Source: an uncultured Gammaproteobacteria bacterium (GTDB taxonomy: Bacteria; Pseudomonadota; Gammaproteobacteria; UBA9214). From it: a DNA stretch of 64,000 nucleotides. The DNA lies in the NCBI GenBank assembly GCA_963773065.1, contig CAVYZN010000023.1, forward strand, positions 96,001 through 160,000, written 5' to 3'. The notes below the pieces were generated by a model. It worked only from the letters and a program-made list of their open reading frames with translations. It was not told where the DNA came from and ran no database searches. This document shows positions 2,801-26,317 of this stretch, in pieces (position 1 is the first letter of the stretch; each line of letters opens with the position of its first letter). Both the position numbers and the translations under genes were made by a program.

Positions 2801-3169
2801 ATGGCCAGGAAAGCGCTTTGCATCGGCATCAACAACTACCCCGGTACTCACATGGATCTGCAGGGCTGCGTCAACGACGCCCAGGATTGGGCCGCGGTTT
2901 TGCAGGCACGCGGCTACACGGTCACCACTCTGCTCGACAAACACGCCACCAAGGCCGCGATGGTACAGGCGATGTCGGACCTGATCGGCGCGGCGGGCAA
3001 CGGCGCTTTCACCTACTACGCACTGAAAACGCTCAAGGCGCTGAAGCCGGACGCCAGTTATGCGGACTGGAACAAGGCCATCGGCGCTTATCTGCCGTCC
3101 GCCAGTTACCCGCAGAGTCCGCAACTCGTGGGCAACAAGACGGCGCGCGGGCAGAAGGTTTTTGGCTGA
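2801..3169 (+). CDS. metacaspase (peptidase C14)-derived protein lacking the His/Cys catalytic core
   Basis: Strong SD AAAGGAGGA. N-terminal KALCIGINNY..DLQGCVNDA is joined directly to C-terminal NGAFTYY...YPQSPQL; no SGHG or DSCHSG motif. Confidence 0.8.
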   Translation: MARKALCIGINNYPGTHMDLQGCVNDAQDWAAVLQARGYTVTTLLDKHATKAAMVQAMSDLIGAAGNGAFTYYALKTLKALKPDASYADWNKAIGAYLPSASYPQSPQLVGNKTARGQKVFG

Positions 3170-3236
3170 CCAGTATCCAAGTAAGAAGTGAGAAGTAAAA
3201 AAGTAAGGTCCGGAGCCACCGCCCCGGCACCCGACC

Positions 3237-3464
3237 ATGAACATCTTAGCCATCACACTTTGGCAGATGAATGAGAACCTCCCCGCTTTGAAACTGATGC
3301 GGGCTGCTGCCGAGGGCCGCACGCGCGTGCTGGGGTCGAATCATCCCGATGCGGTCAACTCGCGGCAGATGTTTGCGCAGATGTCGGCAGCATTAAGTGG
3401 TAAACGAATAGGCTTTGTAGACAGGAAAAGAATCATCAGAGGGAACTTGCAAAGCACCAGGTAA
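3237..3464 (+). CDS. small protein/fragment with one TPR_12-like (RVLGxxHPD) repeat
   Basis: RTRVLGSNHPDAVNS resembles kinesin-light-chain-type TPR ends. Only 75 aa. Confidence 0.4.
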   Translation: MNILAITLWQMNENLPALKLMRAAAEGRTRVLGSNHPDAVNSRQMFAQMSAALSGKRIGFVDRKRIIRGNLQSTR

Positions 3465-3541
3465 AACCTTCAGGCGAGTGCCACGTTTGAAAGGGACAGG
3501 ACGCAAATAGGGAATAATCAGGACCAAAGGAGAACGACATC

Positions 3542-6500
3542 ATGACCAGGACCTATAAGATACGCGGCACCGAACAACACGCGAGGACCGTTCCTCCCAC
3601 CAGTCAGGACATCGCCATCACCAATCCGCGCCGGCTGGTCGCCCGGCTCCGCCCGCGAGGCCGGGGTGGGCGAGATCGAGGCGGCGGGCGACGAGGTGGT
3701 GCGGGTGGAACTGGAAAACGGCTTCGTGCTGTGGACCCGGGCCGACGACCTGATCCGGGAGCGGGGCCGGAAGGCGACGAGCCGCGACGGGGGCGAGGGT
3801 TGGGAGATCGAAAGCCGGCCAAAATTGCGGGGCATGCAGTCCGGCCAGCGGGGCTGGCTGGGGCTCGGTATCAAGGTGCTGGAGTTCTTCGGCGTGGACC
3901 TGACGGGCAAGACGGCCGGGGTACTGGGCGACAAGCTGGAGGAGAAACTGTTGAAGGGCAATTTCCCGGGTCTCTACCGCTGCGCCCTGGGGGATGCTTT
4001 TACCCTCACGGTTGTGCCCGACGGTGAGGAACTGCCAACTGGCAAGGAGCCGTTGCTGGTATTTATACACGGTACCGCTTCCAGCACCCAGGGCAGCTTC
4101 GGCAAGCTTTGGGAAGGAGGCGGCAGCGCCGGCGCCGCGGCGCGCAAGACACTCAAGGATCGCTACGGCGACCGGGTGTATGCCTGGGAGCACCGCTCCC
4201 TCACCGTCAGTCCCATCCAGAATGCCCTGGAGTTGGTGCGACGCCTTCCCGCCAACGCCGTGGTCCATTTGGTGACTCATTCCCGGGGCGGGCTGGTGGG
4301 GGAACTGCTTTGTCTCGCCGAGCGGGACAAGTCCAAGGACCCGTTCCAGTCGGATCTCCTGCAAAACCTGTTCGCCGCCGATCGCACCATCGCCGAGCAG
4401 ATCGGCCTGAGCCCGCTGGATGAGGGCGCCGCCAAGACGCGCGACGATGCTTACGGCGAGGACCGGGAGCGGCTGAAAAAGCTGCTGGAATTGCTGGACG
4501 AAAAGCAGATTAAAATCCGACGCTTCGTGCGCGTGGCCTGTCCGGCCCGGGGCACCACCCTGGCCTCGGGCCGCCTGGACCGCTGGCTGTCGGTCATCAA
4601 CCACCTCACCGGCAACAGCCTGGTGGGCGATGCCGCCGACTTCCTGCTGGCGGTGGTGAAGGAGCGCACCGACCCGCGCACCCTGCCGGGGCTGGAGGCC
4701 ATGATGCCCGGCTCGGCCCTCACCCGGATGCTACAGCACCCCGCCCTCACCACCGGCGCCGATCTGACGGTGATCGCCGGCGACGTCGAGGGCGACAACC
4801 TGTGGAGCCAGATCAAGCTGCTGGCCACCGACTGGTTCTACGGCGCCGACCACGATCTGGTAGTGAACACCGGTTCCATGTATGGCGGCATCCGCCGACC
4901 GGAAAAGGGCGCCCGCTTCCTGCGGGACCAGGGTCCCAGCGTCAACCACTTCAGCTATTTCGAGAACGACAAGAGCGTGCGCTGGCTGATGGCGGGACTC
5001 ACCCGGGCCGACGGAACCGACGGCGGCTTCCAGCCCATCGAAGCAGCGAAACACGAAGAACCCCGCTGGCGCGAGGCGGTGCGCCGCAGCCGTGCCGCGA
5101 CCGCGCCGCGGCCCCTGGCCGTGGTGCTGCCGGGCACTCTGGGCAGCGCCCTGAAGGTGCAGGGCGAAAATGTGTGGCTCGACTACTGGTCCCTGTTGTG
5201 GGGCGGGCTCAAGCGGCTAAGCATGGATGCGACGGGGGTCGAGCCCACCGACCTGCTGGACGATTTTTACGGCCCCCTGCTGGAGTTCCTGGCACGCAGC
5301 CACCGCGTGGAGATCTTCCCCTACGATTGGCGGCTTTCGGTGGTCGATGCGGCGAAAAAACTGGCGGACCGCTTGGAAGTCTGGCTGCCGGCAGCCGAGC
5401 GCACTGACCAGTCCGTACACCTGGTGGCCCATTCCATGGGCGGGCTGGTGGTGCGCGCCATGATCGCGGACACGCAACGTGGAGCAGCGCTGTGGCGGCG
5501 CATCGTTGCCCTGCCCAACAGCCGATTCCTGATGCTGGGCACGCCGAACCTGGGTTCCTACGAAGCGGTGCGCTGGCTGACCGGCGGCAACCCAACCCAG
5601 GCCAAGATCAGCCTGCTGGATATCACCCAGAGCACCAACGAGATCATCGATTTGGTGCGCAACTATCCGGGCCTGGTGGAACTGCTGCCCTTCGACCCCG
5701 ACAGCCCCGACTTCAGCCAGCAGGGCCTCTGGAAGAAACTCAGGGACGCCTTGAACGCCTCATGGCAACCGGCCGAGGAAGCGGTGCTGCGCCAGGCGCT
5801 CGCTACCTGGACTCTCTTGAAACAGTCCGCCCCGGATCCCGAGCACATGATTTACGTGGCCGGCTGTCAGGATGCCACGGTGGCGGATTACCACCTGGCC
5901 GACTACGAACAACCCTCTCTCGCTGGACGTAAACGCCTCGAGTTCATCGGCGACCGGCAGGGCGACGGAACGGTGACCTGGAAGTCCGGCCGCCTGCCCG
6001 GCGTACCCGTCTGGTATGTGGAAGACACGGCCCATGACGAGCTGTGCAAGCAGAAACGCGCCCTGCCCGGCTACCTGGATCTGCTCATGACCGGCAAGAC
6101 CACGCGCCTGCCCGGCACCCCGCCGGCCGGGGCGAGAGCGGCGGCGGGCGAGCCGGATCGCTTCCCCATGCCGGCCCTGCCGCACACCGACGACATCCCG
6201 GATGAGCGCAGCGTGCGCAGCTTCAGCTTCGGTCCCGGGCGGCCCTTAGAGACCGATGACGACCGGCCGGTGGTGCCGGTCATCCAGGTCGGCATCTGTC
6301 ACGGCGACCTGGCCTACGCCCATCATCCGGTGCTGGTGGGGCATTACCTGGGTGACACCGTCATCAGCGCCGAGTCCGCCCTGGACCACCGGCTTGGCGG
6401 GGCGCTGACACGGCGCCTGCAGCTCGGGCTCTACCCGGGGCAGACGGGAACCCATGCCCTGTTCTTCAATGAAAAGACGGACGGCAAACCCGGGGGCGCG

Positions 6501-9062
6501 GTCGTGATCGGGCTGGGCCAGGTGGGCGAACTCTCTCCCGGTCTGCTCGAGGCCGGCGTGCGCAACGCGCTGATGGACTACGCCCTGCAGGTGGCTCAAT
6601 GGCCGGACGAACGCTTCGGTCCGGCCAAGGGCGTGCGATCGGCCGCCGTATCCTGTCTGCTGGTGGGCTCCGGCCCGGGCGGCATGGCGGTGCGTGATTC
6701 CGTCGATGCCATCCTCCGGGGCGCGGTGGCGGCCAATGACCGGCTGGAGCAGGCTGATCTGAATGACCGGGTGCTCATCGACCGCGTCGAGTTTCTGGAG
6801 CTGTTCGAGGACGTGGCCCTCGCCGCGGCCGATGCAATGGATTCGATCTTGAAGGACGGGAAACTGGCCAATGCCATCGCCTGGCCGGCGAAAGTCATCG
6901 AGGAAGGACAGGGCCGGCTCCGCCGGGTACGCTGCGACGATACACCGGGCTGGTGGCACCGGCTGGAGATCATCGAGGAGAAAGGCCGGGGCGGCCTGCG
7001 CTTCATCGCCTCCACCGATCGCGCCCGGGCCGAGGTCACCCAGGCCACCGGCCAGCTTCGATTGGCGGACAGCTTTATCCACCAGGCCTCCCAGTCTCCC
7101 GCCAGCAATGCCGAAGTGGCCAAGACCCTGTTCGAGATGCTCCTGCCCAACCGGCTGAAGGAATTGGCCCCCAGACAGACGGACCTGGTGCTGCTGGTGG
7201 ACGCAGCCTCGGCGCGCTACCCCTGGGAATTGCTGGAAGACCGCTGGAGCCAGACCGGCCGGCCGGCCGCTGTTTCCGCCGGCCTGGTGCGCCAGCTCAA
7301 GACGCCCCGGTTCCGTCCCCATCCGGCCCATGCCACCGAGGCCACCGCCTTCGTCGTGGGCAATCCGGATCTGGGCGGCTGGGATTCCTTCCCCGACCTG
7401 CCCGGCGCAAGGCAGGAGGCGCAAAACGTCGCCAGCCGGCTTATGGCCGGAGGTTATCGGGTGAGGGACTGCATTGATGAAAAGGCCGACGTCATCCTGG
7501 AAGTTCTGCACAAGGACGCCTGGCGCATCCTGCACCTGGCGGGCCACGGCGAGCACGAGATGGTGCTGGAGGAGGAAGATGAAGCCCGAGAGGTGTGCGC
7601 GGACGATGAGCGGCCCGTTCCGAAACGCAAGCAGTGCCTCTCGGGCATGGTCATCGGCAGCAAGACTTTCCTCACCCCGGGCGATGTGGAGCAGATGCGC
7701 TGGGTGCCGGAGCTGGTGTTCATCAACTGCTGCCACCTGGGCAAGACCGGCGCCTCCCGACACGGCAAATACAGCCTGCTGGCGGCGAACCTGGGAGTGC
7801 AGTTCATCAACATGGGAGTCAAGGCAGTGGTGGCCGCCGGCTGGGCGGTGGACGACGGGGCGGCGAGCGCCTTCGCGGAGAGTTTCTACGCCCACCTGCT
7901 GGACGGCGAGCTTTTCGGCAAGGCGGTGCGTGCCGCCCGGGAGGAGATCTGGACCCGCTTCCCCAACGTCAACACCTGGGGCGCCTACCAGTGCTACGGG
8001 GATCCCGGCTACCGGCTTCGCGGCGACGGCGCTGCCCCACCGCCTCCCAGCGGCAAGCGCTACCACTCCCCGGCCGAATTGATCGCCGATCTGGAAAACC
8101 ACACCCAAGTGATCCGCGTGAAGATCAAGAACAAGGAGAAGGACGGGGACGAGGATGCCCTCGCCAAGATGCGCGCCGGCATCGTCGGCCTGTTCGGTGC
8201 CATACCGGAAGAGCGGCAGGCGAAATGGCTCGCCCGCGCCGACGTGGCGGCGGCAGTGGGCTTCGCCTGGGGCGAGACCGGCGCCTGGGCCGAGGCCGTG
8301 GAATGGCTGGAGAAGGCACTGCATGCCAAGGAGGGCGATTGCCCGGTGCGGGCGGTGGAACAGTGCGCCAACTTCAGGGTACGGCTGTCCGCGCAGAAGT
8401 GGCAGCAGATGCGTGATGCGGTTGATCGCAAACAGGCCGAGGCAGGTCGCTCTGCGCTGATCCGGGAAATCGAACTCGCCATCCGGGAACTGGACTACCT
8501 CAACCAGCGGGCGCCGACCCAGGAACGATTGGACCTGCTGGGCGGCGCCTGCAAGCGGCTGGCCTGGGTTCACACCGAAGAGGCGCCGCGCCTCGAAGCT
8601 CTGGTCAACATGGCCAACTACTATCGCCAAGCCTTCGATCATGACGACAAAGCCAGATCCCTATCCCTTCACCAACTGGGCCATCGCCAAGGTGTTCGCC
8701 AATCGGTTCGATCCCACCCAGGATGGCGAGTGGCGGATCACTCTGGAAGACGAATGCCGGCGCATGATCGACGTGGCCCGGAGCCGCAACGCCGAGAAAC
8801 CCAATTTCTGGGACGGGGCGGCCGAGGCCGACTGCGAACTGGTGATGTTGCTATGCTGGCAAATCGCGACACCACGACGAAGGCAGCCAACGAAGCCGTG
8901 ACCCGCATTGCCGAACTTTACCGAGCCGCGGCACGGCGCGGCGCCAGTCCCAGGGAATACGCCTCGGTGCTGGAGCACCTGGACTTCGTCATCGAGGTGG
9001 GCGGCTTCACGGCCGGCTCTCCATTGAACGAAGCTCTGCGCGCCATCCGCGATGCGCTCTGA
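3542..9062 (+). CDS. giant multidomain protein: two alpha/beta-hydrolase (lipase/LCAT-like) domains + CHAT caspase-like protease + C-terminal TPR-like region (indels near 3650 and about 8655/8855)
   Basis: SD AAAGGAG before ATG 3542. Motifs FIHGTASS...VTHSRGG and PYDWR...VAHSMGG...LGTPNLGS, CHAT dyad HLAGHG / FINCCHLG, VAAGWAVDD and WGAYQCYGDP. ORF 8641..8901 supplies the likely true frame over part of the C-terminus. Confidence 0.88.
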
Positions 9063-9087
9063 GCCGCCAGGAACCAAGGAGACCGCC

Positions 9088-10123
9088 ATGGCCAACCGTT
9101 CGAAAACCCGGCTGGAAAACCTCAGTCTCGAAGACCTCGACCCGCAGGATCTCATCGCCGCGAACTTCCGTGTCTATGAACTCACCCGTTCCGAACTCGC
9201 CAGCCGGCTGGGCATAGACAACACCTTCCCGAGCGACCGGGAACTGCGCGCCGCCGTGTACCTGGCCCGCAAGGTGCTGCAGGTGATTCGCGATACCTTC
9301 GGCCCCTATACCCCAAACAGCGTGTTCCGCAGCCAAGCCCTGGAGCGCGCGCTGAAGAAAAAGCCCGGCGGGTGGATCAGCACCAGCCAGCACACCCAGG
9401 GCTGCGCCTGTGACGTGGAGATCGTCGGCAAGACCACCCTGGAACTGGCTCAATGGGCGGCGGACAACCTGCCCGACTACGACCAGATCATCTGCGAGTG
9501 CTTCGACCCGAGCGAAGGCCCCAACTCCGGTTGGGTGCATATCTCCCTCAAGCCCCCCGAATTGGGGGTAAACCGCAGGACCCTCTTGAGCTACATCCGT
9601 GATCCCGAAAATGGAACTCATCGCCGCGAACTTCCGTGTCTATGAACTCACCCGCTCCGAACTCGCCAGCCGGCTGGGCATAGACAATTCCTTTCCCAGC
9701 GAGCGGGAGCTGCGCGCCGCCGTGTACCTGGCGCGCAAGGTGCTGCAGGTGATTCGCAAGGAATTCGGTTCCTTCTCACCCAACAGCGTGTTCCGCAGCC
9801 AGGCTCTGGAACGCGCGCTGAAGAAAAAGCCCGCCGGCTGGATCAGCACCAGCCAACACACCCAGGGCTGTGCCTGCGACCTGGAACTCGTCGGCAAGAC
9901 CACCCTGGAACTGGCCCAGTGGGCGGCGGACAACCTGCCCGACTACGACCAGATCATCTGCGAGTGCTTCGACCCGAGAGAAGGTCCCAACTCCGGTTGG
10001 GTGCACATCTCCTTCAAGCCCCCCGAATTGGGGGTAAACCGCAGGACCCTCCTGAGCTACATCCGTGATCCCGGAAGCGAACAGATGGTTTATGTCGAGG
10101 GGTTGCGGGAAAGCGTGGCGTGA
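9088..10123 (+). CDS. peptidase M15A-like (D-Ala-D-Ala/endolysin-type Zn peptidase), two tandem domains; either one frameshifted gene or two overlapping genes (9088..9645 and 9611..10123)
   Basis: SD AAGGAG. Each half has NF..ELTRS, S.FRS.AL, SQHxxGxAxD and WVHIS Zn-ligand motifs. Confidence 0.82.
9151..10073 (+). repeat. diverged tandem direct repeat, two 457-bp copies (9151..9607 and 9617..10073)
   Basis: Both copies begin CTCATCGCCGCGAACTTCCGTGTC and end CTACATCCGTGATCCCG, with scattered substitutions between them. Confidence 0.95.
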
Positions 10124-10211
10124 CAATTGGCATGATGTCGAAGTGACTGTGCGCGACACCGGTGAGATCAGCGCGAGTGGAAAATACTTCCGGCATCGCA
10201 CCGGTTACTGA

Positions 10212-10388
10212 GAGCCTGTGAAAATATCGCCAGCCTGCGTCGGACGCCGCTTTGCGGCTGCGGCGGCGTTGCGCCACGCGAAAACTTCGGTCATTTGGCT
10301 CGCCAAACTCCCTTGTTTTCGCGCAGCGCGCCTTGCCTCGCACGCAAATCGACGCCCTCGCGACGACCGTCGATATTTTCACAGGCTC
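10212..10388. mobile_element. MITE (non-autonomous, IS5/IS1182-like ends)
   Basis: Perfect terminal inverted repeats GAGCCTGTGAAAATATCG / CGATATTTTCACAGGCTC, flanked by TGA on both sides (10209-10211 and 10389-10391). No transposase inside. Confidence 0.75.
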
Positions 10389-10794
10389 TGAATCCATACA
10401 TCATCCACTGCAAGGAGGAGATGGCCATGAATAAATGCGTTGTGTTGCTACGCAACGCTTGGTGGATTACGCAAGAATACGCTAACCCCCTACCCGCCCT
10501 GATTTGTATTCCTCCCTCAATGACAGACAGAACGCTTACCTTGACGGATATCCGCTGATCCCGTTCAGCGGCATGCGCCATGGCGGCGTGTGCCACAGTT
10601 GAAGTAACCGGTGACAGAACGTCTGAAAAAAATTCAAGACCCTGCGCTCCTGCCTCCTGCATGCGGTGAAATTTATACCCGGCCTTCAACGGAAGCGATT
10701 GGGCGAAATCCTGACTGCTCCATCGAATACCGGGGTTTCTTTCGCCAGCCCGGTTATCTGCGATATGCTCCTTTCTCTTGAGAACACGGGCCAC

Positions 10795-13504
10795 ATGACC
10801 ACCATCTACCTCTCTTCGTCCTACGAAGACCTGAAGGACTACCGCCGGGTCGTGTTCGAGGCCCTGCGACGGTCCGGGTATAACGTCATCGCGATGGAGG
10901 AGTACGTCGCCCGTGACGACCGCCCCGTGTACGCCTGCCTTCAGGACGTCGATCACGCCGACATCTATGTGGGGCTGTTTGCCTTCCGCTATGGCTACAT
11001 CCCGCCCGCCGCACACGGCAATCCCAACGGCCTGTCCATCACCGAACTGGAGTTCCGGCGCGCCGATCGCTGCGCCTGCCAAGAAATGCCTGACGTTTCT
11101 GCTCGATGAAAAGACCCCCTGGTCGAGCCTATACAACGACGCCTATACACGTGAGAACGAACGCGGTGAGCGAATCAAGAAGTTGAGGGATTACCTGCGG
11201 CAGGAAAAGATGGCAAGCTTCTTCAGCACACCCCACGAACTGGCCAGCCTGGTGCAAGCCGCCGTCAGCCAACATCTCCAGTCCGGCCGGGAAGAATCCC
11301 CGGCGTCCGAAACCCGTTCCGAACCGATCACCTGGCACGTCGCCAAAGACGACTCGCCCTATCCGGGGCTCATGCACTTCACGCGACAGTTCGCCCGGGT
11401 GTTCTTCGGCCGCGAGGGGGAGGCGCGGGAACTGCTCGACCGGATGACCCTGCCCGATGGCCGCTTCCTCATCGTGAGCGGCGACTCCGGCACCGGCAAG
11501 TCCTCGCTGGTGGATGCGGGCGTGTTACCCCGGCTGGAGGAATCCGGACTCCCCGGATACCCGACACTCACTACGGTACGCCTGGTCCCGGGCGAAGGAG
11601 AGAACCCCTTCGACGCCCTGCTCCGGGTCCTTAGCCCTTACGCACAACGGGCGGGTTTGAACTCGTATCTGCTTGGCACCGAGGAGCTGGTCGCCCACCC
11701 CGAGAATTTGCCGGCAACGCTTGCGACGATCGTCGCGCGTGGCATGGACACAAAGGCCTTGGTGCTGTTTGTCGACCAGATGGAAGAGCTGTTCACGGTC
11801 AAGGAAGAGGAAAAAGCGCTGGCGGCCGCCTTTCTCTCGGGGCTTTACCAGGCCATCCAGACAAGCGCCTTGTGGGTCATCGCCACCATCCGCACCGACC
11901 TGCTGCACCACTGCTACAACCACCCGGACCTGCTCAAGGTCCTGCGCGGTCCGGGGCATTATCCGCTCGGTCCGATGGCGCTCCACCGGTTGCATGAGAT
12001 CATCGTGCGGCCCGCTCGCTGCGCCGGCCTGGCAGTTCCCGGTCCTCTGGCGGGACGTCTGATCAAGGACGTCGGCACGGAAGCGGGCAATCTGCCGTTG
12101 CTGGCCTTCGTGCTGCGGCGGTTGTTCGACAGACGCCAGGATAATGTGCTCAGTGAAGCAGTCTACGATGACCTCGGCGTCCTCAATGGCGCCATCGCCG
12201 ATCACGCTGCTTCGGTGCAACGCGAACTCGCCGCCACCCTTGGACAAGAAGTCCTGGAACGGCGTCTTGCCGAAATCTTCGAGGCTCTGGTCCACGCGGA
12301 TGTGGAGGGCCTGCCCACCCGGCGCAGCGTCCCTTCGCAGGAGTTTTCCGACCACATGCATACCGTCATCGATGCCCTGGTGAAGGGACAGCTTCTGACC
12401 GTGCAGGGTGGGCGCGATAAGGGCACCGTCACCGTGGCTCACGAACGCCTGTTCAATGCCTGGCCGGCGCTTGCCCATTGGGTCGCCGAACTCCAGGACG
12501 AGCTGCGCCTGCTGCGCCAGGGTGAACTCGATGCCGCGGAGTGGCAGCGTCATAACGCAGACCTCGGCTATCTTTGGCACACCGACCGCCTGATGCGCTT
12601 GCAGACGGTGGTAAGCGGCCTGGCAGCCAACCGGGCAAGCCGGCAGCTACGCGACTTCGCCTGGCCGCAACAACGTCTGGTGAACCGCCTGAACGAACCG
12701 GAACTTACCCATGAGGTACGCCAGAGCATCGGCCGCTACCTGGCCGAGCAGGGCGATCCACGGCCGGGGACCGGTGTGACCGCCGACGGTATCCCGGACA
12801 TCGACTGGGTAGACATACCCGACGGTCGCGTGGTGTTGGAGAAAAATGTCGGCGCGGGCATGGTCGAACCTTTCCGCATGGCGCGTTATCCCATCACCAA
12901 TGCCCAGTTCGAAGCCTTCGTGTCCGCCGCAGATGGTTATCGTAACCGGGAATGGTGGACAGGATCGCCGGAGGCCGCCAGCGATGGCCTGGAAACGCCG
13001 CGCTGGCCCGAACCCAACCATCCGCGCGTGTCTGTATCCTGGTACAAGGCGGCGGCCTTTTGCCGCTGGCTGTCCCGGCGGCTCGGCTTCGAGGTCTGGC
13101 TGCCCACCGAATTCGAGTGGCAGCAGGCGGCCACCGGCGGTGACCCGACCAACGTCTATCCCTGGGGCCCCGAATGGGATGCGCGCTACTGCAACAGTAC
13201 GAAGAGCAGGCTGAACCGAACCACGGCGGTGGGCATGTATCCCGCGGGCGCCAGCCACCAGGGCGTGCTGGATCTGGCCGGCAACGTGTGGGAATGGTGC
13301 AAGAATAAATACGACAATCCCGATGACCCAAAGGCGTTGCGCGTCGATGATTCCGGAGATTCGCGCGTGTTGCGCGGCGGGTCCTGGGCCGGCGGTCCGG
13401 TCGACCTGCGTTGCGCCGACCGCTTCAGGTTCTTTCCCGACGACCGCTTCGTCGACATCGGGTTTCGTGTGGTGTGCCGCCCCCGCTCTTCCACGGGACG
13501 CTGA
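10795..13504 (+). CDS. DUF4062 + STAND-type NTPase + FGE-sulfatase (SUMF1/CLec-like) domain protein (indel near 11065)
   Basis: DUF4062 IYLSSSYEDL...RYGYIP...SITELEF. SPYPGL..F...FFGRE, Walker A GDSGTGKSS, Walker B LFVDQMEELF, GNLPLLAF and AHERLF. FGE motifs LPTEFEWQQAA, DLAGNVWEW and RGGSW...GFR. Confidence 0.9.
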
Positions 13505-13604
13505 CGGGAATGGCACTTACATCGGGTTACCTCAACCTGCTATTTTGACGGAGCCGCGGAATGCGCACCCGGCGCGCAAGAGTACAATCATCGCGGGGAT
13601 ACCC

Positions 13605-13721
13605 ATGAACACCTACGAACCACACCCAATCGACACCTCCGGCATCCGGCTACCCGAGGATCTCCTGGAACTCACCGAAGAACTTGCCCGCAACCGTATA
13701 CTCCCTCCGGGCGCCGCGTGA
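13605..13721 (+). pseudogene. truncated 5' copy of the RyR-domain gene
   Basis: MNTYEPHPIDTSGIRLPEDLLELTEELARN is nearly identical to the first 30 aa of 15113..15400, then diverges and stops overlapping the next ATG. Confidence 0.8.
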
Positions 13722-14977
13722 TGTCCGCTGAAACAGCCTCCACGAAGAACGACAGCCGGCACGTTTTCATCAGCTTCGCATCGGCGGATCTCGAACTGGC
13801 CAATCGGATCGTCGAAAGGCTGGAGCGCGGCGGGATCCGCTGCTGGATCGCGCACAGGGACATCGAACCCGCCGCGAGCTATCCAGCCGCCATCACGGCC
13901 GCCATGACTTCAAGCGCAGCCGTCCTGCTGCTCCTGACTGAATCGTCCAACAGTTCGCCTCATGTGCTGCGCGAAATCGAGATGGCGTTCAACGCCCGCA
14001 CACCCATCCTGCCGGTGTGCATGGCGGGCCTCACGCCTTCGGCCGATTTGCAGTATTTCCTTTCGACGACGCAATGGTTCGATGCCGGCGCGACCTTCGA
14101 CGAGGGTGACGCAAAACGGCTGCAGGACCGTCTGAAAGAACTGCTCGCAGGCGGCACGGTTCACCGCGGCAGACGGGATATTCCAGGCCGATTCGGACGA
14201 CGGGCCTTCATCGCGGGAGTGCTGGCGCTGTCGGCCGTGGCTGTTATCGTCTTATCCTTCGTCGTTCCATGGGGATTTCATCCGTCGCGGGAGTCCATCC
14301 AAACGAAAGTCAGCTCGCGGGACGGCCAGACGTACGTGTGGGTCCAAGCCGGTGATTACGTGATGGGATGCTCGTCAGGAGATCCTGCATGCGAAGAAGA
14401 TGAGAAGCCTGCGCATAGGGTCCGCATCAAACAGGGCTTCTGGCTTGCCCGCACGGAGGTAACGGAGGCGCAGTACCGTAAGCATGCACCGGCAGGGAGC
14501 GGTGATCGCCAGGAGGCGGACGCCAATATGCCGGCAACAGAGATTACCTGGGCGGATGCGAATGTCTATTGCACGGCGATCGGTGGCCGGCTGCCAACGG
14601 AAGCCGAGTGGGAATACGCGGCACGCGCGGGCACCACGACCCGCTACTACGGCGCGCTCGGGTCTATCGCGTGGTACGAGGACAACAGTAACCAACGCGC
14701 GCATCCTGTGGGGCAGAAGCAGCCCAATGCGTTCGGCCTCTACGACATGCTGGGCAACGTGGCGGAGTGGGTTCGAGACCGCTATTACAACTCGTACGAC
14801 GATAGCGGCGATGAAGTCGCGATCGAGGAGCCGCTGGCACCGAACGCCTCGGCTATCGCGCGCGGCGGTTCATGGTTCTCGGATGCGCGCGGTGTCCGAG
14901 TATCGCGGCGGCTCGATATGATCCCGGAGGCGGCAGAGGCGATAATCGGCTTTCGTTGCGCATACGACAAGCTATGA
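13721..14977 (+). CDS. TIR domain + transmembrane helix + FGE-sulfatase (CLec-like) domain protein
   Basis: HVFISFAS.D...CWIAHRDI...SNSSPHVLREIE (TIR with conserved Glu), hydrophobic AFIAGVLALSAVAVIVLSFVV, then RLPTEAEWEYAARAG, LYDMLGNVAEW and RGGSW...GFR. Confidence 0.9.
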   Translation: MSAETASTKNDSRHVFISFASADLELANRIVERLERGGIRCWIAHRDIEPAASYPAAITAAMTSSAAVLLLLTESSNSSPHVLREIEMAFNARTPILPVCMAGLTPSADLQYFLSTTQWFDAGATFDEGDAKRLQDRLKELLAGGTVHRGRRDIPGRFGRRAFIAGVLALSAVAVIVLSFVVPWGFHPSRESIQTKVSSRDGQTYVWVQAGDYVMGCSSGDPACEEDEKPAHRVRIKQGFWLARTEVTEAQYRKHAPAGSGDRQEADANMPATEITWADANVYCTAIGGRLPTEAEWEYAARAGTTTRYYGALGSIAWYEDNSNQRAHPVGQKQPNAFGLYDMLGNVAEWVRDRYYNSYDDSGDEVAIEEPLAPNASAIARGGSWFSDARGVRVSRRLDMIPEAAEAIIGFRCAYDKL

Positions 14978-15112
14978 CCGGGCCAGGCTCAGTGAGAGTG
15001 GTGGGCGATGCTCACCCTACGTGCTACCCCCTGCTCCCGCAACCTGTTATTTTGAGCGAGCCGCGGAATGCACACCCGGCGGCGCAAGGGCACAACCATG
15101 GCGGGGATACCC

Positions 15113-15400
15113 ATGAACACCTACGAACCTCACCCGATCGACACCTCCGGCGTCCGGCTACCGGAGGGCCTCATGGAACTCACCGAAGAACTCGCGCGCA
15201 GCACGCACGATCACTGGGCGAGACAGCGCATCGGGGAGGGATGGAGCTGGGGTCCCGCGCGCGATGACGCCGCCAAACGGCACCCCGACCTCGTGCCCTA
15301 TGCCGAGCTTTCGGAAGCGGAGAAGCAGTACGACCGCACGACCGCCATGGAAACGCTGAAGGCGATCATCGCCCTGGGATACCGGATCGAGCGCGATTAG
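15113..15400 (+). CDS. stand-alone RyR-domain protein
   Basis: P.PIDTS.V.LP..L..L.E.LAR.THD.WA..RI.EGW..GP.RDD..KRHPDLVPY.ELSE.EK.YDR..A.ETLK.I.ALGY.I matches the ryanodine-receptor repeat consensus. Confidence 0.9.
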   Translation: MNTYEPHPIDTSGVRLPEGLMELTEELARSTHDHWARQRIGEGWSWGPARDDAAKRHPDLVPYAELSEAEKQYDRTTAMETLKAIIALGYRIERD

Positions 15401-15454
15401 CGCCGCAAAGGGCTGCGCCCCACGGACTCCCGAAACGGGGGAAAGCACAACGGG

Positions 15455-16675
15455 TCAATCCTCGATGTCCCTGGCAAGACGAAAACCAATGTAGCTGTAC
15501 CCGGCACCGGGGGAGTCCCTGAGCCGGGACGCGGAACGCAGGCCCACCGCCAGGAGGTACCAGGAACCACCGCGCACCACGCGCTGGCCGCAATCTCCGC
15601 CGCCGCCCTCCAACCAGGCGGAACCGTCATCGGGCGCGCCATCGTAGTTATCATGCACGCAGTCCTGCACCCACTCCCACACATTGCCCGCCGTGTCGTA
15701 AAGACCAAACGCGTTCGCCTCGAATGACCCTACCGGCGCCGTGTACTTCCCTTCGGCCTTGCCCTGCCACTCACTCTCACAATCCTCGCAGTTGGCCATC
15801 CCCGGCTTCATCTCCTCACCCCACCAGTACCGCGTCGAAGTCCCCGCCCGCGCGGCATACTCCCACTCGGCTTCGGTCGGGAGCCGATACGGCTTACCCG
15901 TCTGTTGCGACAGCCATTCGGCATAGGCTACCGCATCAACCCAGGAGACATTGATCACCGGCCGACGGTCACGACCCCAGCCACCATCGGCCGGCAGCGC
16001 ATGCCCCGTTGAGGCCGCAAACTGGTCGTATTCCTCGAAGGTCACTTCGTATCGCCCAATCGCAAACGGCCTGGTGAAAGTAACCCGGTGCTGGGGACGC
16101 TCATCCGGATCCCGGCCATATTCATCGCCTGGCGAACCCATCATGAAAGAACCCGGCGGAATTTCCACCATCTCGGGACCCTTCGAACCATCAAGCAATG
16201 TGTCGCGAATCACAGCCGGCAATGACACGTTGGCTACGTTTACGTTTTCGCTTGGTTCTTTGCTGATTTCAGTCGGCCGATGGGGTTGACCGACAATCTC
16301 GGCGATATCCTTCCTCAGGTTCCGATAAGAATCCTGGTTAACGGTGCCATCCCAATCGAACAATTCAAGCGTTTGCAACTCTTCGAACCGAAAGGGAAGA
16401 TCGACCGCCTCAATCTTGACCGGAACCAGTTTATTGTGATTCAGAGCGTAATACGCCTCGTCCTTCACATAAGTCGACTGGACCGAACGTTGCGACCACA
16501 GGACGATGACGCAGCGGGATGCCTTCATTGCCTGCTCGATCACATCATCGAAGTGTTCGCCCGCGTGGAGCTTCGGGTCCCACCAGACACTCCAGCCCTC
16601 GCGTTCCAGCGCATCCGCCAGGCATCTGGCGACGTGCTGTTCCTCCCGTTTGTAGCTGATAAAAATATCCGTCAT
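15455..16675 (-). CDS. TIR domain + FGE-sulfatase (CLec-like) domain protein
   Basis: DIFISYKRE...VWWD...VIVLWSQRSVQSTYVKDEA (TIR_2 with Glu), then GPEMV.IPPGSF.MGS, RLPTEAEWEYAARAG, GLYDTAGNVWEW and RVVRGGSW...GFRLA. Confidence 0.92.
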   Translation of the reverse strand: MTDIFISYKREEQHVARCLADALEREGWSVWWDPKLHAGEHFDDVIEQAMKASRCVIVLWSQRSVQSTYVKDEAYYALNHNKLVPVKIEAVDLPFRFEELQTLELFDWDGTVNQDSYRNLRKDIAEIVGQPHRPTEISKEPSENVNVANVSLPAVIRDTLLDGSKGPEMVEIPPGSFMMGSPGDEYGRDPDERPQHRVTFTRPFAIGRYEVTFEEYDQFAASTGHALPADGGWGRDRRPVINVSWVDAVAYAEWLSQQTGKPYRLPTEAEWEYAARAGTSTRYWWGEEMKPGMANCEDCESEWQGKAEGKYTAPVGSFEANAFGLYDTAGNVWEWVQDCVHDNYDGAPDDGSAWLEGGGGDCGQRVVRGGSWYLLAVGLRSASRLRDSPGAGYSYIGFRLARDIED

Positions 16676-16812
16676 GCTCGCGACTTGTTCCAGGTTTCGT
16701 ATGCCGGTGAAAAACGAGACGGGGCGTTCGGCCTGCGCCTACCCGCCCCGTCCCGCGCCGTCCGTGACAGGTCTATTAGGCGGCCCCATCCGTGCGGTCG
16801 GCAATGGCGGCT

Positions 16813-18147
16813 TCAGACGGCCGCGGCCACGGCCGTGGCCAGATGACCGGCCTCTTCGCGCACCGTCTGTTCGTCCTCGCCTTCGACCATGACCCGCACC
16901 ACGGGTTCGGTCCCGGACGCGCGCAACAGGACACGGCCCCTGCCGCTGAGCCGCCGCTCCGCCGACCGGACCGCCTCCTGCACGCCCGGCGCGGCCTCCA
17001 AGTTCATGCTCTTACCGACCGGTACGTTGATCATGTACTGCGGATATTTCTTCATGCCGGCCTTCAACTCGTGCAGCGGCTTGCCGCCCATGATCATGGT
17101 GGCGAGCACCTGCAGCGCGGCGACGATGCCGTCGCCGGTGGTGGTGCGGTCCAGGCAGATGATGTGGCCGGAGGATTCCCCGCCCAGCATGCCGCCGGTC
17201 TGCTGCAGCCGCTCCAGCACGTAGCGGTCGCCGACCCGGGCGCGCTCGAAGGCGATGCCGTGCGCCTGCAGGGCATGCTCCAGTCCGAGGTTGCTCATCA
17301 GGGTGCCGACGACGCTGCCGTTCAGCTTGCCCTGCTCCCGGCGCGAGCGCGCGATGATGAACAACAGCTCATCGCCGTCCACCAGTTCGCCGCGGCTGTC
17401 GACCATGATGACGCGGTCGCCGTCGCCATCGAGGGCAACCCCGGCATCGGCGGCGTGTTCCCGCACCGTTTTCTGCAACTGCTCGGGCTGGGTGGAACCG
17501 CAGTCGAGGTTGATGTTGAGGCCGTCGGGATGCGTGCCGACCTTGATCACCTCCGCGCCCAGTTCGTCGAAGATGCTGGGCGCGACGCCGTAGGTGGCGC
17601 CGTTCGCGCAGTCGACGACGATCTTCAGGCCCCGCAGCGACAGGCTCATCGGCACCGTGCTCTTGCAGAACTCGATATAGCGCCCGGGGGCATCGGGCAC
17701 GCGTTCCGCCTTGCCGAGCCGGGCGGAGTCCACGGTGACCATGGGCTTCTCCAGCTCGTCCTCGATGGCGAGTTCGATCTCGTCCGGCAGCTTGGTGCCC
17801 TGGCGCGAGAAGAACTTGATGCCGTTGTCGAAGTAGGGATTGTGCGAGGCGCTGATGACGATCCCGGCGCAGGCATGCAGGGTGCGCGTGAGATAGGCGA
17901 TGCCGGGGGTGGGCATGGGACCCAGCAGGCGGATGTCGATACCGGCGGCGGAAAGACCCGCCTCCAGCGCCGATTCGAACATGTAGCCGGAAATGCGCGT
18001 GTCCTTGCCGATGATGACCAGGTCGCCGCCGGCAAGCCCCAGCACGCGGCCGGTTGCCCAGCCCAGTTTCAGCATGAACTCGGCCGTTACCGGGTATTCC
18101 CCCACCCGACCGCGGATGCCGTCGGTACCGAAATATTTTTTCGCCAT
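16813..18147 (-). CDS. glmM: phosphoglucosamine mutase
   Basis: [29 protein letters not shown] and RASGTEP motifs. Confidence 0.98.
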
Positions 18148-18188
18148 GCTGGCTCCTCAATGATGCCGCATCAGTCCAGATCGGAATT

Positions 18189-18404
18189 ATTCACCGCAAA
18201 GACGCAAAGTTCGCGAAGACTTATTAACAAAAATCATTAAACAGCTTTGCGTTCTTTGCGTCTTTGCGGTGAATTTATTTCTTTATGGATGGACATTGAT
18301 TCACCGCATTTTCGCTCTCTCCATCCTGTCCTGTATTACCGCTCAACACCGAAGTTGTTTTCAAGTGATTATTGGTTTTGCGGTCTTGGCGTCTTTGCGG
18401 TGAG
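18189..18404. repeat. REP-like palindromic repeat cluster
   Basis: Perfect 21-bp inverted pair ATTCACCGCAAAGACGCAAAG (18189-18209) / CTTTGCGTCTTTGCGGTGAAT (18254-18274). A further arm GCGTCTTTGCGGTGA lies near 18390. Confidence 0.75.
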
Positions 18405-18409
18405 GCTCA

Positions 18410-19264
18410 TTAGCCGGCATCCCTGACCGCCTGACACAGCCGGATCGCCTCGCGAGTCTCGCGGACATCGTGGCAGCGCACGATCGCGGCGCCCTGCCAG
18501 ACCGCCAGCACCGCCAGGGCAACGCTGGGAGTTAACCGCTGATCGACGGGAAGGCCCAGCACCTGGCCGATCAGCGACTTGCGTGACAGACCGACCAGCA
18601 CGGGGTAGCCGTGCGCGACCAGGCGGTCGAGATGGCGCAGCAGCCGCAGGTTGTGCTCAACCGTCTTGCCGAATCCGAAGCCCGGGTCCAGCAGTATCCG
18701 GTGGCGCGGCACCCCGGCCGTGACACAGGCGCGCACGCGCTCCAGCAGAAAGCCGGCGACTTCGGCAACCACGTCCGCGTAGCGCGGCGCCTCCTGCATG
18801 GTTTGCGGCTCGCCCCGCATGTGCATCAGGCATACCGGCACGCCCAGATCCGCCGCCGCCGCGGCGGCGCCTTCCGCCCGCAGGGCATTGACGTCATTGA
18901 TCAGGCCGGCGCCCGCCGCCACCGCGGCGCGCATCACCTCCGGTTTCCGGGTATCGACCGATATGGGCACCGGCAGGGATCGATGCAGGGATTCGATGAC
19001 CGGCAGGACGCGCCGCAGTTCCTCATCCAGCGGGACCGGCGGGGCCCCCGGACGGGTGGACTCGCCGCCGACATCGATGATCGCCGCGCCCTCATCGACC
19101 ATGCGATGCGCCCGCTCGACGGCCCTCGCGGTGGATAAGAAATCACCCCCGTCCGAAAAGGAATCGGGGGTGACATTCAGGATGCCCATGATCTGCGGAT
19201 GCGAGAGGTCCACCGGCTTGCCCGCGCAGTCGAGCCAAATGGGGTCAGCGCCATCTCCCGCCAA
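18410..19264 (-). CDS. folP: dihydropteroate synthase
   Basis: MGILNVTPDSFSDGG, DVGGESTRPGA, DPGFGFGK and GLSRKS motifs; ftsH-folP-glmM synteny. Start approximate. Confidence 0.96.
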   Translation of the reverse strand: MAGDGADPIWLDCAGKPVDLSHPQIMGILNVTPDSFSDGGDFLSTARAVERAHRMVDEGAAIIDVGGESTRPGAPPVPLDEELRRVLPVIESLHRSLPVPISVDTRKPEVMRAAVAAGAGLINDVNALRAEGAAAAAADLGVPVCLMHMRGEPQTMQEAPRYADVVAEVAGFLLERVRACVTAGVPRHRILLDPGFGFGKTVEHNLRLLRHLDRLVAHGYPVLVGLSRKSLIGQVLGLPVDQRLTPSVALAVLAVWQGAAIVRCHDVRETREAIRLCQAVRDAG

Positions 19265-19282
19265 GGGTATTCACCACCCGGT

Positions 19283-21220
<1,938 letters not shown>

Positions 21221-21303: not shown

Positions 21304-21936
21304 TTATGACACATTAGCCGGATTGCGGTGCTTTGCCAACACATACACCTCGCGGCTTTTGGGGCGCGAAGCCCTGGGCTTGCGTATCCTGACCGCATGG
21401 TAATGCGCGCGCAACGTCTTGACCAGTTCGTCAAACCCCTCGCCCTGGAAGGCCTTGAACAACAACACCCCGCTATCGCGCAGGACCCGGTCGGCAAAAT
21501 CCGCCGCCAGTTCCGCCAGGTAGATGCTGCCCGGCTGGTCCACCGCATCCATACCCGTGATATTGGGGGCCATGTCGGACATTACAAGGTCGACCCCGCC
21601 ACCGGTGAGCATCCCCAGCAGCCGTTCCAGCACCGTGTCTTCGCGAAAATCCCCCTGCAGAAATTCCACTCCGGATAACGGTTCCATCGGCAGGATGTCC
21701 ATGGCGATGATGCGGCCGGTGCCCTTGAGAAGCTGCGCGGCATACTGCGACCACCCGCCGGGCGATGCGCCCAGGTCGACGAGCGTCATGCCGGGCCTAA
21801 GAATACGGTCCTTGCGCTGGATTTCCTCGAGCTTGTACACGGCGCGCGAGCGGTAACCCTCGCGTTGCGCGCGCTTGACGAACTCGTCATCGAAATGCGA
21901 TTTGAGCCACTGGTGGCTGCTCTTGCTTCTGCCCAT
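21304..21936 (-). CDS. rlmE: 23S rRNA Um2552 methyltransferase
   Basis: MGRSKSS..WL, YRSRAVYKL, DLGASPGGW, SDMAPN and KPRASR..SREVY motifs. Confidence 0.97.
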   Translation of the reverse strand: MGRSKSSHQWLKSHFDDEFVKRAQREGYRSRAVYKLEEIQRKDRILRPGMTLVDLGASPGGWSQYAAQLLKGTGRIIAMDILPMEPLSGVEFLQGDFREDTVLERLLGMLTGGGVDLVMSDMAPNITGMDAVDQPGSIYLAELAADFADRVLRDSGVLLFKAFQGEGFDELVKTLRAHYHAVRIRKPRASRPKSREVYVLAKHRNPANVS

Positions 21937-21952
21937 GTTCCTGAACCTGTTA

Positions 21953-22409: not shown

Positions 22410-22622
22410 GGATCAGAACTCCTGGAATTCGGTTCAGCGCGTCGTTACAAGCCGCGGCGCAACGCGTTTAACAGGTTTTGTGGCAAGAATAGCGTGGGAC
22501 TTGCCGTAAATCCGTTCTAGGTACACTGCATCCATGCGTCGATGACCGCCTAGCCGTTCCGACATCCCTGGTAGTCGTGCAGCTCTGTAGCGGTGAGAAC
22601 AGGTTTACAGGGACGGCCACTT

Positions 22623-23095: not shown

Positions 23096-23099
<4 letters not shown>
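22623..23099 (-). CDS. greA: transcription elongation factor GreA
   Basis: [17 protein letters not shown] and [11 protein letters not shown]; directly after carB. Confidence 0.97.

Positions 23100-26317
<3,218 letters not shown>

What the first reader, a model, noticed from the sequence alone, without database searches (positions are those of the whole stretch)
13364..13504. DGR-type variable region at the end of the DUF4062-STAND-FGE gene, with no RT or template in the window
Seen: between GGSW and IGFR the gene reads TGG GCC GGC GGT CCG GTC GAC CTG CGT TGC GCC GAC CGC TTC AGG TTC TTT CCC GAC GAC CGC TTC GTC GAC ATC GGG TTT CGT GTG GTG. All 14 non-scaffold codons end in C or T. Known: DGRs mutate only template adenines, turning AAC/AAT codons into NNC/NNT in the C-terminal CLec/FGE ligand-binding segment. 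DGR-diversified STAND/TIR-CLec receptors have been reported in multicellular bacteria. Inference: this is a remote (trans) DGR target, i.e. a hypermutable NLR-like receptor. High GC3 weakens but does not explain the absence of NNG codons.
Basis: partly seen in the sequence, partly recalled or inferred. Interest (0 to 1): 0.78.

Follow-up and report, generated by a model that had tools for sequence, protein, structure and literature searches.

The report
Orphaned DGR-type variable region in STAND receptor
The tail of this immune-sensor-like gene looks like a stretch once rewritten by a targeted hypermutation system, but this genome appears to lack that system and the stretch appears frozen.

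Summary
The codons at 13385-13474 read as quoted, and all 14 "non-scaffold" codons end in C/T. This 27-codon stretch has the gene's highest NNY count (23/27; gene-wide 55%).

Homology supports the DGR-type label. Relatives of this DUF4062-nSTAND1-FGE gene carry true variable/template repeat pairs beside reverse transcriptases with an IGNLTSQ motif. These occur in Nitrospirales loci and in two members of the window gene's own clade. The 12 AAC/AAT codons of those templates align with NNY codons here in 12 of 12 cases.

- No template exists in the 3.84-Mb assembly (91% complete).
- The genome has no DGR-type RT, only group II intron RTs and one fragment.
- No DGR-like RT was found in 30 relatives, and no scaffold match in 40 relatives or IMG/VR.
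- Contigs 96-98% alike from other studies show only one listed change in the region, and it is synonymous.

In this assembly a 1-base insertion near 11065-11068 puts the DUF4062 domain out of frame. The gene lies in a strain-specific island.

Verdict: an orphaned, static DGR-written region, and a new member of a known kind.

The parts
10795..11067 (+). N-terminal DUF4062 domain of the receptor gene. It starts at ATG 10795 (MTTIYLSS...) and is read in frame 1.
   Evidence: ORF 10666..11109 matches PF13271 DUF4062 at E 2e-22. One search gives the translation. The start agrees with the N-termini of the homologues.
11065..11068 (+). Frameshift site. This assembly has one extra base, in a context that is not a homopolymer, and it separates DUF4062 from nSTAND1-FGE.
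   Evidence: frame 1 stops at 11109 and frame 2 carries on with ...KKCLTFLLDEKTPW, as in the homologues. table 4: contigs of X1 (at 11065), X2 and X3 (at 11067) lack one base here.
10913..13504 (+). Open frame encoding the nSTAND1 NTPase (aa 149-550) and the C-terminal FGE-sulfatase/CLec-type domain (aa 646-854).
   Evidence: PF20703 nSTAND1 at E 7e-89 and PF03781 at E 1e-43; homologues of about 895 aa with DUF4062+nSTAND1+FGE, best 61% identity.
13388..13468 (+). DGR-type variable region: the 27 codons between GGSW and the end of IGFR. Twelve of them align with AAC/AAT codons of homologues' template repeats.
   Evidence: 12/12 NNY at template-AAY positions, 23/27 NNY overall, and the scaffold codons CCG, CTG CGT, AGG, GAC, ATC, CGT identical to Nitrospirales TRs.
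13718..14977 (+). Neighbouring TIR-FGE gene (419 aa). Its C-terminus lacks the signature and serves as an internal control.
   Evidence: TIR_2 at E 2e-21 and FGE-sulfatase at E 7e-46; 5/12 NNY at the same positions.
15455..16675 (-). Second TIR-FGE gene (406 aa). Its C-terminal segment (15479-15571) also carries the DGR-type signature and also has no template in the genome.
   Evidence: TIR_2 at E 2e-23 and FGE-sulfatase at E 2e-64; 11/12 NNY; the best non-self fit when template A is tolerated is 80/111, to a paralogous FGE domain.
3666..9062 (+). 1798-aa protein with DUF7379 and lipase-like alpha/beta-hydrolase regions, a CHAT protease domain and a TPR-S domain. It belongs to the same strain-specific island.
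   Evidence: DUF7379 at 1.5e-32, CHAT at 2.3e-28, TPR-S at 1e-9, LCAT at 1e-9.
9052..10123 (+). Two overlapping ORFs (9052..9645 and 9599..10123) with Peptidase_M15_3 domains.
   Evidence: E 2e-7 and 2e-6.

Best explanation
The gene is a STAND-type (NLR-like) conflict-system sensor with the layout DUF4062, nSTAND1 NTPase, then a C-terminal FGE/C-type-lectin-fold domain. The last 27 codons before IGFR (13388-13468) are a variable region that a diversity-generating retroelement wrote in the gene's ancestry or in a donor genome: template AAC/AAT codons were converted to NNC/NNT.

In this genome the retroelement (RT, template repeat, accessory gene) is gone, or it never came along when the island was acquired. 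The region therefore no longer mutates and is inherited as a fixed ligand-binding surface rich in Asp and Phe.

Shown here:
- homology to true VR/TR pairs and the codon signature;
- no TR or DGR-type RT found in the assembly or in the sampled relatives;
- near-identity of the region in related strains;
- the island's absence from same-genus genomes.

Inferred:
- a DGR wrote this particular copy;
- the domain binds a ligand and signals through the NTPase to the N-terminal domain.

In this assembly a 1-base insertion uncouples DUF4062, so this copy may be a pseudogene or an assembly error.
For: 1. Family level. Six Nitrospirales loci and one metagenome locus with homologues have an RT with GNLTSQ within 10 kb (7 of the 80 loci L018-L095, L106 and L107). 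VR/TR pairs that fit 100% when template A is tolerated occur in L023, L031 and L042.
2. Same clade. L106 (56% identical) has VR, then TR, then a truncated RT just downstream. L018 (57%) has a TR about 150 nt downstream whose mismatches to its VR are mostly, but not only, at template A, and a weak match to the C-terminal part of a DGR RT at G041:C6:49547-49846.
3. Tree. The window gene sits in a 10-row clade (SH-aLRT 100) with L106 and L018.
4. Codon signature. 12/12 NNY at template-AAY positions, against 5, 8 and 9 of 12 in other FGE domains of the genome. The rare AGG codon and other scaffold codons are identical to the Nitrospirales TRs.
5. No DGR here.
   - blastn and an ungapped scan that tolerates template A find only paralogous FGE domains (at most 74/105).
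   - A scaffold pattern with N at the variable sites hits only the region itself in the genome, 0 of 40 relatives and 0 in IMG/VR.
   - No Asn-rich ...GFR frame exists in the six-frame translation.
   - The 5 RVT_1 hits are four RTs with the motif-4 sequence GTPQG...SP.LAN, one pair of which also carries a GIIM domain, plus one fragment beside an IS. The best match to two DGR RTs is 32-33% identical.
   - 0 of 30 relatives have a DGR-RT-like match at E<=1e-20.
   - The one Avd-like gene (PF05635) lies among sugar-nucleotide genes with no RT nearby.
6. Static region. X1 contig 13153-13643 has 17 differences, 14 of them listed, and none of those falls in 13364-13504. X2 contig 13183-13580 has 7 differences, 3 listed; the only one in the region is 13420 C>T, a synonymous GAC>GAT change.
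7. Orphans elsewhere.
   - Thiorhodococcus drewsii has a DGR whose TR does not fit its two family-type variable regions (71-72 of 93).
   - Two of five genomes with homologues gave no match to the DGR RT.
   - A third gave only 29-35% matches, and its two fetched loci carry the group II motif.
8. The island between about 2900 and 16790 has no DNA match in 4 same-genus genomes, while both flanks match.
Against: - The assembly is 90.9% complete with 6.3% contamination and is a bin of 33 contigs. A DGR could lie in the missing part, on an unbinned plasmid or phage, or the contig could be mis-binned.
- Logan contigs drop rare variants, so diversification within a population was not tested.
- In one search three differences of the X1 contig and four of the X2 contig are not listed and could fall in the region.
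- Only 4 of the 12 signature codons are synonymous-free. The rest of the signal is amino-acid composition (4 Asp, 4 Phe), which selection could also produce.
- The genomic contexts of the closest homologues (P0004-P0010, 55-61% identical) could not be fetched.
- The tree is unrooted, so loss versus gain of the DGR link is an inference.
Confidence: 0.74

Rival explanations
1. Active remote target. A DGR encoded elsewhere, in the unassembled 9%, on an unbinned mobile element or on a phage, still rewrites this region in trans.
For: - Trans targets are reported in Thiohalocapsa PB-PSB1 (Dore et al. 2024, PMC10907252, passages read).
- The genome is incomplete.
- A second gene in the island (15455-16675) has the same signature, as expected where one DGR serves several targets.
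Against: - No TR or DGR-type RT in 3.84 Mb.
- 0 of 30 relatives have a DGR-like RT.
- No scaffold match in IMG/VR.
- The region is unchanged apart from one listed synonymous change in strains 96-98% alike from other studies, while the flanks differ.
- The two signature-bearing regions in the island share only 71 of 111 bases, with several third-position and scaffold differences, so one template cannot serve both.
Confidence: 0.07
2. Never DGR-written. The segment is the ordinary conserved C-terminus of an FGE-sulfatase-fold domain. The NNY excess comes from selection for Asp, Phe and Gly in a binding loop plus GC-rich codon usage.
For: - The GGSW...R...R...GFR scaffold is general to the FGE-sulfatase family, including enzymes.
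- 8 of the 12 codons encode Asp or Phe, which can only end in C/T.
- Other FGE domains in the genome reach 8-9 of 12.
Against: - The positions were defined from independent templates and give 12/12 here, against 5-9 of 12 in the controls.
- All four codons free to end otherwise are NNY.
- Scaffold codons, including the rare AGG, match the true TRs.
- Clade-mates L106 and L018 have a TR directly downstream.
- Across 55-61% identical homologues the flanks are nearly invariant while these positions vary freely.
Confidence: 0.12
3. Decaying pseudogene. The frameshift is real, the gene is dead in this strain, and the region is only a remnant under no selection.
For: One-base insertion at about 11065-11068 relative to three related strains. 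The public gene call starts at an internal Met (P0003, 764 aa).
Against: - The remaining 863-codon frame is open.
- The insertion is a single event and may be an assembly error; the assembly has artefactual poly-A and poly-G runs.
- This reading is compatible with the best explanation and does not replace it.
Confidence: 0.3

Closest known systems
DGR-diversified STAND NTPase-CLec 'putative antigen sensors' of multicellular bacteria (Thiohalocapsa PB-PSB1 DGR 6 and clade 5D; Dore et al. 2024, PMC10907252; passages read)
   Same: An nSTAND1 NTPase followed by a C-terminal FGE-type CLec domain that carries the variable region. An N-terminal effector or adaptor domain is present, and TIR and CHAT genes lie nearby.
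   Different: In those systems a TR and RT exist, in cis or in trans, and diversification was observed. Here no TR or RT was found and the region is static. The N-terminal domain is DUF4062, not EAD8. A full-text search for 'DUF4062' together with 'diversity-generating retroelement' found 0 papers. That paper's SI figures S10-S11 were not seen and may list such architectures.
FGS-domain, DGR-linked ternary conflict systems (Kaur, Burroughs, Iyer and Aravind 2020, PMC7159879; passages read)
   Same: The FGS/FGE domain is always C-terminal, is used as the variable sensor or effector, and has a TR in the neighbourhood or elsewhere. Alpha/beta-hydrolase-caspase(CHAT) pairings occur in the same systems.
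   Different: No vWA-MoxR components were looked for or seen here, and no TR exists in this genome.
DUF4062-nSTAND1-FGE homologues with cis DGR cassettes found here (L023, L031, L042 in Nitrospirales; L106; L018)
   Same: The same three-domain architecture at 35-57% identity, the same 27-residue spacing between W and GFR, and variable codons at the same positions.
   Different: Those loci carry a TR 0.1-2.7 kb downstream, and most carry an RT. The window has another TIR-FGE gene directly downstream instead.
Treponema denticola variable protein TvpA (PDB 2y3c)
   Same: An FGE-type CLec fold. The window domain matches it at E 7e-14 over its C-terminal 133 residues.
   Different: It is not the best PDB match; that is the kinase ToxD, 7spq, at E 1.4e-21. 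TvpA is a lipoprotein, not a STAND protein.

Membership tests
Active DGR target gene | Variable region at the C-terminal end of a CLec/FGE-fold domain | tested here: met
   PF03781 matches aa 646-854. The region aligns codon for codon with VRs and TRs of homologues.
Active DGR target gene | A cognate template repeat in the genome that differs from the VR only at template adenines | tested here: not met
   The best non-self fit when template A is tolerated is 74/105, to a paralogous FGE domain. blastn finds no TR. The scaffold pattern hits only the region itself. The assembly is 91% complete.
Active DGR target gene | A DGR-type reverse transcriptase in the genome.
   Of the 5 RVT_1 hits, four have GTPQG...SP.LAN and one pair of them has GIIM; the fifth is a fragment with TGPELSH. 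Identity to DGR RTs is at most 33%.
Active DGR target gene | An accessory variability determinant (Avd) next to the RT/TR | tested here: not met
   The single PF05635 hit, at C6:32388-32684, lies between the GDP-fucose synthase and GDP-mannose dehydratase genes with no RT nearby.
Active DGR target gene | Sequence variation between strains or reads concentrated at codon positions 1-2 of the template-A codons | tested here: not met
   in contigs 96-98% alike, 0 of 14 listed X1 differences fall in the region, and X2 has one, which is synonymous. Three X1 and four X2 differences are unlisted. Raw reads were not available.
Active DGR target gene | A homing signal or hairpin 3' of the VR | tested here: inconclusive
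   The 91 nt after the region fold no better than shuffles (z +0.57). The same is true for the true targets L042 and L023 (z +1.0 and -0.06). Only L106 shows a strong hairpin.
nSTAND1 STAND NTPase conflict-system protein | nSTAND1 domain with a P-loop | tested here: met
   PF20703 at E 7e-89 over profile positions 1-377 of 379. GDSGTGKSS is present and invariant in the alignment.
nSTAND1 STAND NTPase conflict-system protein | N-terminal effector/adaptor domain (DUF4062) fused in frame | tested here: not met
   It is out of frame in this assembly. Three related strains lack the extra base, and the homologues are fused.
Formylglycine-generating enzyme (catalytic FGE/SUMF1) | Catalytic cysteine pair and copper site | not tested
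   Only domain-level similarity was scored.

The most novel reading that the evidence does not exclude
The island carries two receptors (10795-13504 and 15455-16675) whose binding loops were written by a DGR and then fixed. A hypermutation-derived specificity has in effect been converted into a germline-encoded one. It spread by horizontal transfer without the mutator and has been held constant in soil and sediment strains from several studies. If orphaned, signature-bearing regions like these are common in the DUF4062-nSTAND1-FGE family, as the Thiorhodococcus locus and the loci in delta-proteobacterial MAGs hint, then repeated 'diversify, select, then discard the DGR' would be a general route by which bacterial NLR-like sensors acquire new specificities.
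Probability: 0.2. Interest if true: 0.6.

Novelty: new member of a known kind. Interest (0 to 1): 0.35.

Why it matters
DGR-diversified STAND/CLec sensors are already described, so the kind is known. This case adds three things.
1. The DUF4062-nSTAND1-FGE architecture is a recurrent DGR target in Nitrospirales and in gammaproteobacterial MAGs.
2. The codon signature of DGR writing can persist in genomes where no DGR is found.
3. Such signatures, read from sequence alone, therefore cannot be taken as evidence of ongoing hypermutation.

For annotation pipelines, this is a concrete example of a false "remote target" call that a whole-genome search for the template and RT resolves.

Tried and rejected
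- Hairpin or homing-signal test downstream of the region: uninformative, because true targets L042 and L023 also show no significant fold.
- Avd search: one four-helix-bundle gene in an unrelated sugar-nucleotide context. Rejected as DGR evidence.
- The RT fragment at C11:319087-319803 beside an IS: it lacks the IGxLTSQ-type motif. Rejected as a DGR RT.
- The idea that the island's two signature-bearing genes share one template: rejected, since they share 71 of 111 bases with scaffold and third-position differences.
- The idea that T. drewsii's DGR serves its family member in trans: rejected, since only 71-72 of 93 bases fit when template A is tolerated.
- The metagenome scan with the protein gave only 2 loci, none near-identical.
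- The search of earlier findings was not open.
- Structure prediction, complex prediction and the Atlas search were not run, because they would not change the verdict.
- In one search, parts of the stretch lack cover in some runs (for example X1 beyond about 15980). No inference was drawn from that.
Full report
**What is there**

ORF 10913..13504 (+) encodes an nSTAND1 NTPase (PF20703, E 7e-89, aa 149-550) followed by an FGE-sulfatase-type domain (PF03781, E 1e-43, aa 646-854).

It lies in ORF 10666..11109, in another frame. The gene's natural start is the ATG at 10795 (MTTIYLSS...), like the homologues. Frame 1 runs into a stop at 11109, while frame 2 continues with ...KKCLTFLLDEKTPW as in the homologues.

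Contigs of three related strains lack one base at 11065 or 11067 (table 4; X1, X2 and X3, while the more divergent X5 contig does not show it). So this assembly has a 1-base insertion. It is either a real inactivating mutation or an assembly error. The assembly also contains artefactual poly-A and poly-G runs.

**The observation**

The quoted codons are exact.

Because that partition was post hoc, I tested the pattern in two other ways.
1. In sliding 27-codon windows, 13388-13468 has 23 NNY codons, the gene's maximum. Four of 837 windows reach it, the mean is 14.9, and gene-wide NNY is 55.3%.
2. I took the 12 positions where a homologue's template repeat (L027) has AAC or AAT. The window has NNY at 12 of 12 (0.553^12 = 8e-4).

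At the same positions, the other FGE domains of this genome give:
- 5/12 for the neighbouring TIR-FGE gene 13718..14977;
- 8/12 for the domain on C22;
- 9/12 for the domain on C2;
- 11/12 for the second TIR-FGE gene, 15455..16675 on the minus strand.

A caveat: eight of the twelve codons encode Asp or Phe, which always end in C/T. Only four (Ala, Gly, Gly, Val) are free, and all four are NNY.

**Is it a DGR-type variable region?**

Database homologues with DUF4062+nSTAND1+FGE and about 895 aa are numerous. The best is 61% identical, and named sources include Endothiovibrio, Thiorhodococcus, Nitrospira and Desulfuromonadales. Among 55-61% identical homologues the flanks RVLRGGSW and GFRVV are almost invariant, while the residues between them differ freely.

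I fetched 78 loci from genome contigs and 2 from metagenome contigs. I scanned each one for a second copy of the C-terminal segment, allowing mismatches only where the second copy has A. Three loci have perfect pairs:
- L023: 93/93 tolerated, 82 identical;
- L031: 69/69 tolerated, 59 identical;
- L042: 93/93 tolerated, 76 identical.

Asn-rich template-like copies are also present in L027, L032 and L040.

A tblastn search with two DGR RTs taken from these loci finds an RT with the GNLTSQ motif within 10 kb in 7 of the 80 loci: L023, L027, L031, L032, L040, L042 and L106 (the RT of L042 is shown).

In L106 (56% identical) the order is gene, then TR about 50 codons downstream, then a truncated RT. 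In L018 (57% identical, a gammaproteobacterial MAG) a TR lies about 150 nt downstream. Its mismatches to the VR are mostly, but not only, at template A. A weak match to the C-terminal part of a DGR RT lies in the same locus. This looks like a decaying cassette.

Codon-by-codon alignment shows that the window's variable codons fall on the AAC/AAT codons of these templates. It also shows that the scaffold codons (CCG, CTG CGT, the rare AGG, GAC, ATC, CGT) are identical to those of the Nitrospirales TRs.

A quick maximum-likelihood tree used 32 rows: the window gene, 25 loci and 6 database proteins.
- Left out: loci among L018-L050, L071 and L106 without an ORF of at least 700 aa that carries a P-loop and a GG.W motif near its end.
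- Not considered: the distant L051-L095, apart from L071.

The tree places the window gene in a 10-row clade (SH-aLRT 100) that contains L106 and L018. The tree is unrooted, and several loci labelled 'none in 10 kb' are short contigs.

**Is it a remote, hypermutating target in this genome?**

The window is G000:C23:96001-160000 of a 3.84-Mb, 33-contig assembly that is 90.9% complete with 6.3% contamination.

Template:
- blastn with short words and an ungapped whole-genome scan tolerating template A find only paralogous FGE domains. The best is 74/105 tolerated with 56 identical. The same holds for the two neighbouring FGE genes.
- A 33-nt scaffold pattern with N at the variable sites and up to 3 mismatches hits only the region itself in G000, and 0 of 40 relatives. 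As an exact pattern it finds nothing in IMG/VR.
- A search independent of the VR, for Asn-rich frames ending in GFR, finds nothing template-like.

RT:
- RVT_1 has 5 matches.
- Two identical copies on C10 carry a GIIM maturase domain. Two identical copies on C5 and C32 match RVT_1 only. All four have GTPQG...SP.LAN in motif 4.
- One 239-aa fragment lies beside IS-type ORFs and reads TGPELSH in that place.
- The 8 RTs found next to TRs, or taken from genomes with them, read IGNLTSQ or IGALTSQ.
- With the Nitrospirales and gammaproteobacterial DGR RTs as queries, the best match in G000 is the C10 intron RT at 32-33% identity. In the genome that holds L018 the same query finds matches at 67%, 44%, 39% and 38%.
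- 0 of 30 relatives (4 same genus, 14 same family, 12 same class) have a match at E<=1e-20.

Avd: the one PF05635 gene lies between sugar-nucleotide genes with no RT nearby.

**Between-strain variation**

Twenty runs from 19 studies hold part of the stretch. Contigs of four of them (X1, X2, X3, X5; four studies) were laid on 10600-16800. They are about 96-98% alike.
- X1 contig 13153-13643 has 17 differences. 14 are listed: 4 upstream of 13364, 10 downstream of 13504, and none within 13364-13504.
- X2 contig 13183-13580 has 7 differences. 3 are listed. The only one in the region is 13420 C>T, the third base of a GAC codon, so it is synonymous.
- X3 covers at least 13327-13420 and shows differences at 13327 and 13354 but none at 13420.

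At most 3 (X1) or 5 (X2) differences could therefore lie among the 24 mutable bases. True VR/TR pairs differ at 10-17 bases. Contigs cannot show rare variants, so diversity within a population remains untested.

**Context**

The flanks (about 991-2876 and 16793-20000) match same-genus genomes at 82-92% identity. The stretch from about 2900 to 16790 has no match there. In G001 the two flanks lie 8.1 kb apart, against 14.2 kb here. No orthologue of the gene occurs in 40 relatives; the best is 31% identity over the NTPase.

The island encodes:
- a 1798-aa DUF7379/lipase-like-CHAT-TPR-S protein;
- two Peptidase_M15_3 ORFs;
- the STAND gene;
- two TIR-FGE genes.

This is the domain repertoire of the conflict systems described by Kaur et al. 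2020 (PMC7159879, passages) and Dore et al. 2024 (PMC10907252, passages). The latter report nSTAND1-FGE/CLec proteins as DGR targets, some diversified in trans.

**Orphans elsewhere**

- Thiorhodococcus drewsii AZ1 has a DGR with its own TR and VR (L097). Its two family-type segments in L022 fit that TR at only 71-72 of 93, yet both have 12/12 NNY.
- Of the five genomes with homologues searched with the DGR RT, two gave no match. One gave only 29-35% matches, and its two fetched loci carry the group II motif.

**Conclusion**

The region is best read as a DGR-written variable region that is now orphaned and static, in a horizontally acquired conflict island (confidence about 0.74).

The rivals are:
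- an active trans DGR hidden in unassembled or unbinned DNA (about 0.07);
- an ordinary FGE C-terminus whose codon bias is compositional (about 0.12).

Whether this copy is a pseudogene is a separate, open question. The kind of system is known. What is new is this family's membership and its DGR-less state.

Noticed in passing
window 10207-10391: A repeat of about 185 bp just upstream of the receptor gene. At least 14 other copies at 92-98% identity are scattered over the genome (C4, C31, C9, C18, C11, C26, C8, C20, C32, C5, C10), and partial copies occur in same-genus genome G004. It looks MITE-like.
   Followed up: no
window 18190-18295: A repeat of about 105 bp present in dozens of copies (77-93% identity) across this genome and all four same-genus genomes. 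It looks like a REP-type element.
   Followed up: no
window 15479-15571 (minus strand, in gene 15455-16675): The second TIR-FGE gene also shows the DGR-type codon signature (11/12 NNY; CGG, AGG, CCC, ATT GGT TTT CGT scaffold as in the Nitrospirales TRs). It also has no template in the genome.
   Followed up: partly
G000:C10:19116-20471 and 21750-23105: Two identical RT ORFs with a group II intron maturase domain, lying 2.6 kb apart. A second pair of identical RT ORFs lies on C5:5041-6465 and C32:190244-191668.
   Followed up: partly
G000:C11:319087-319803 (L005 1417-2133): A 239-aa RT fragment of neither the group II nor the DGR type (TGPELSH..., YVDDIV). It abuts two IS-type ORFs that read like a two-ORF transposase. 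The IS family name was not tested.
   Followed up: no
G000:C33:~95250-95430 and C13:~11000-11190: Long poly-A, poly-G and poly-T runs inside contigs. They are most likely assembly or sequencing artefacts, and they bear on how far single-base indels in this assembly can be trusted.
   Followed up: no
L042 16822-18996; L099 2967-4025: DGR cassettes in other genomes serve further target architectures: a 724-aa NTPase-TM-FGE protein in L042, and a TPR-FGE protein with Avd and RT in L099.
   Followed up: no
window 9052-10123: Two overlapping Peptidase_M15_3 ORFs in different frames (9052..9645 and 9599..10123). They may be tandem paralogues or another frameshifted gene.
   Followed up: no
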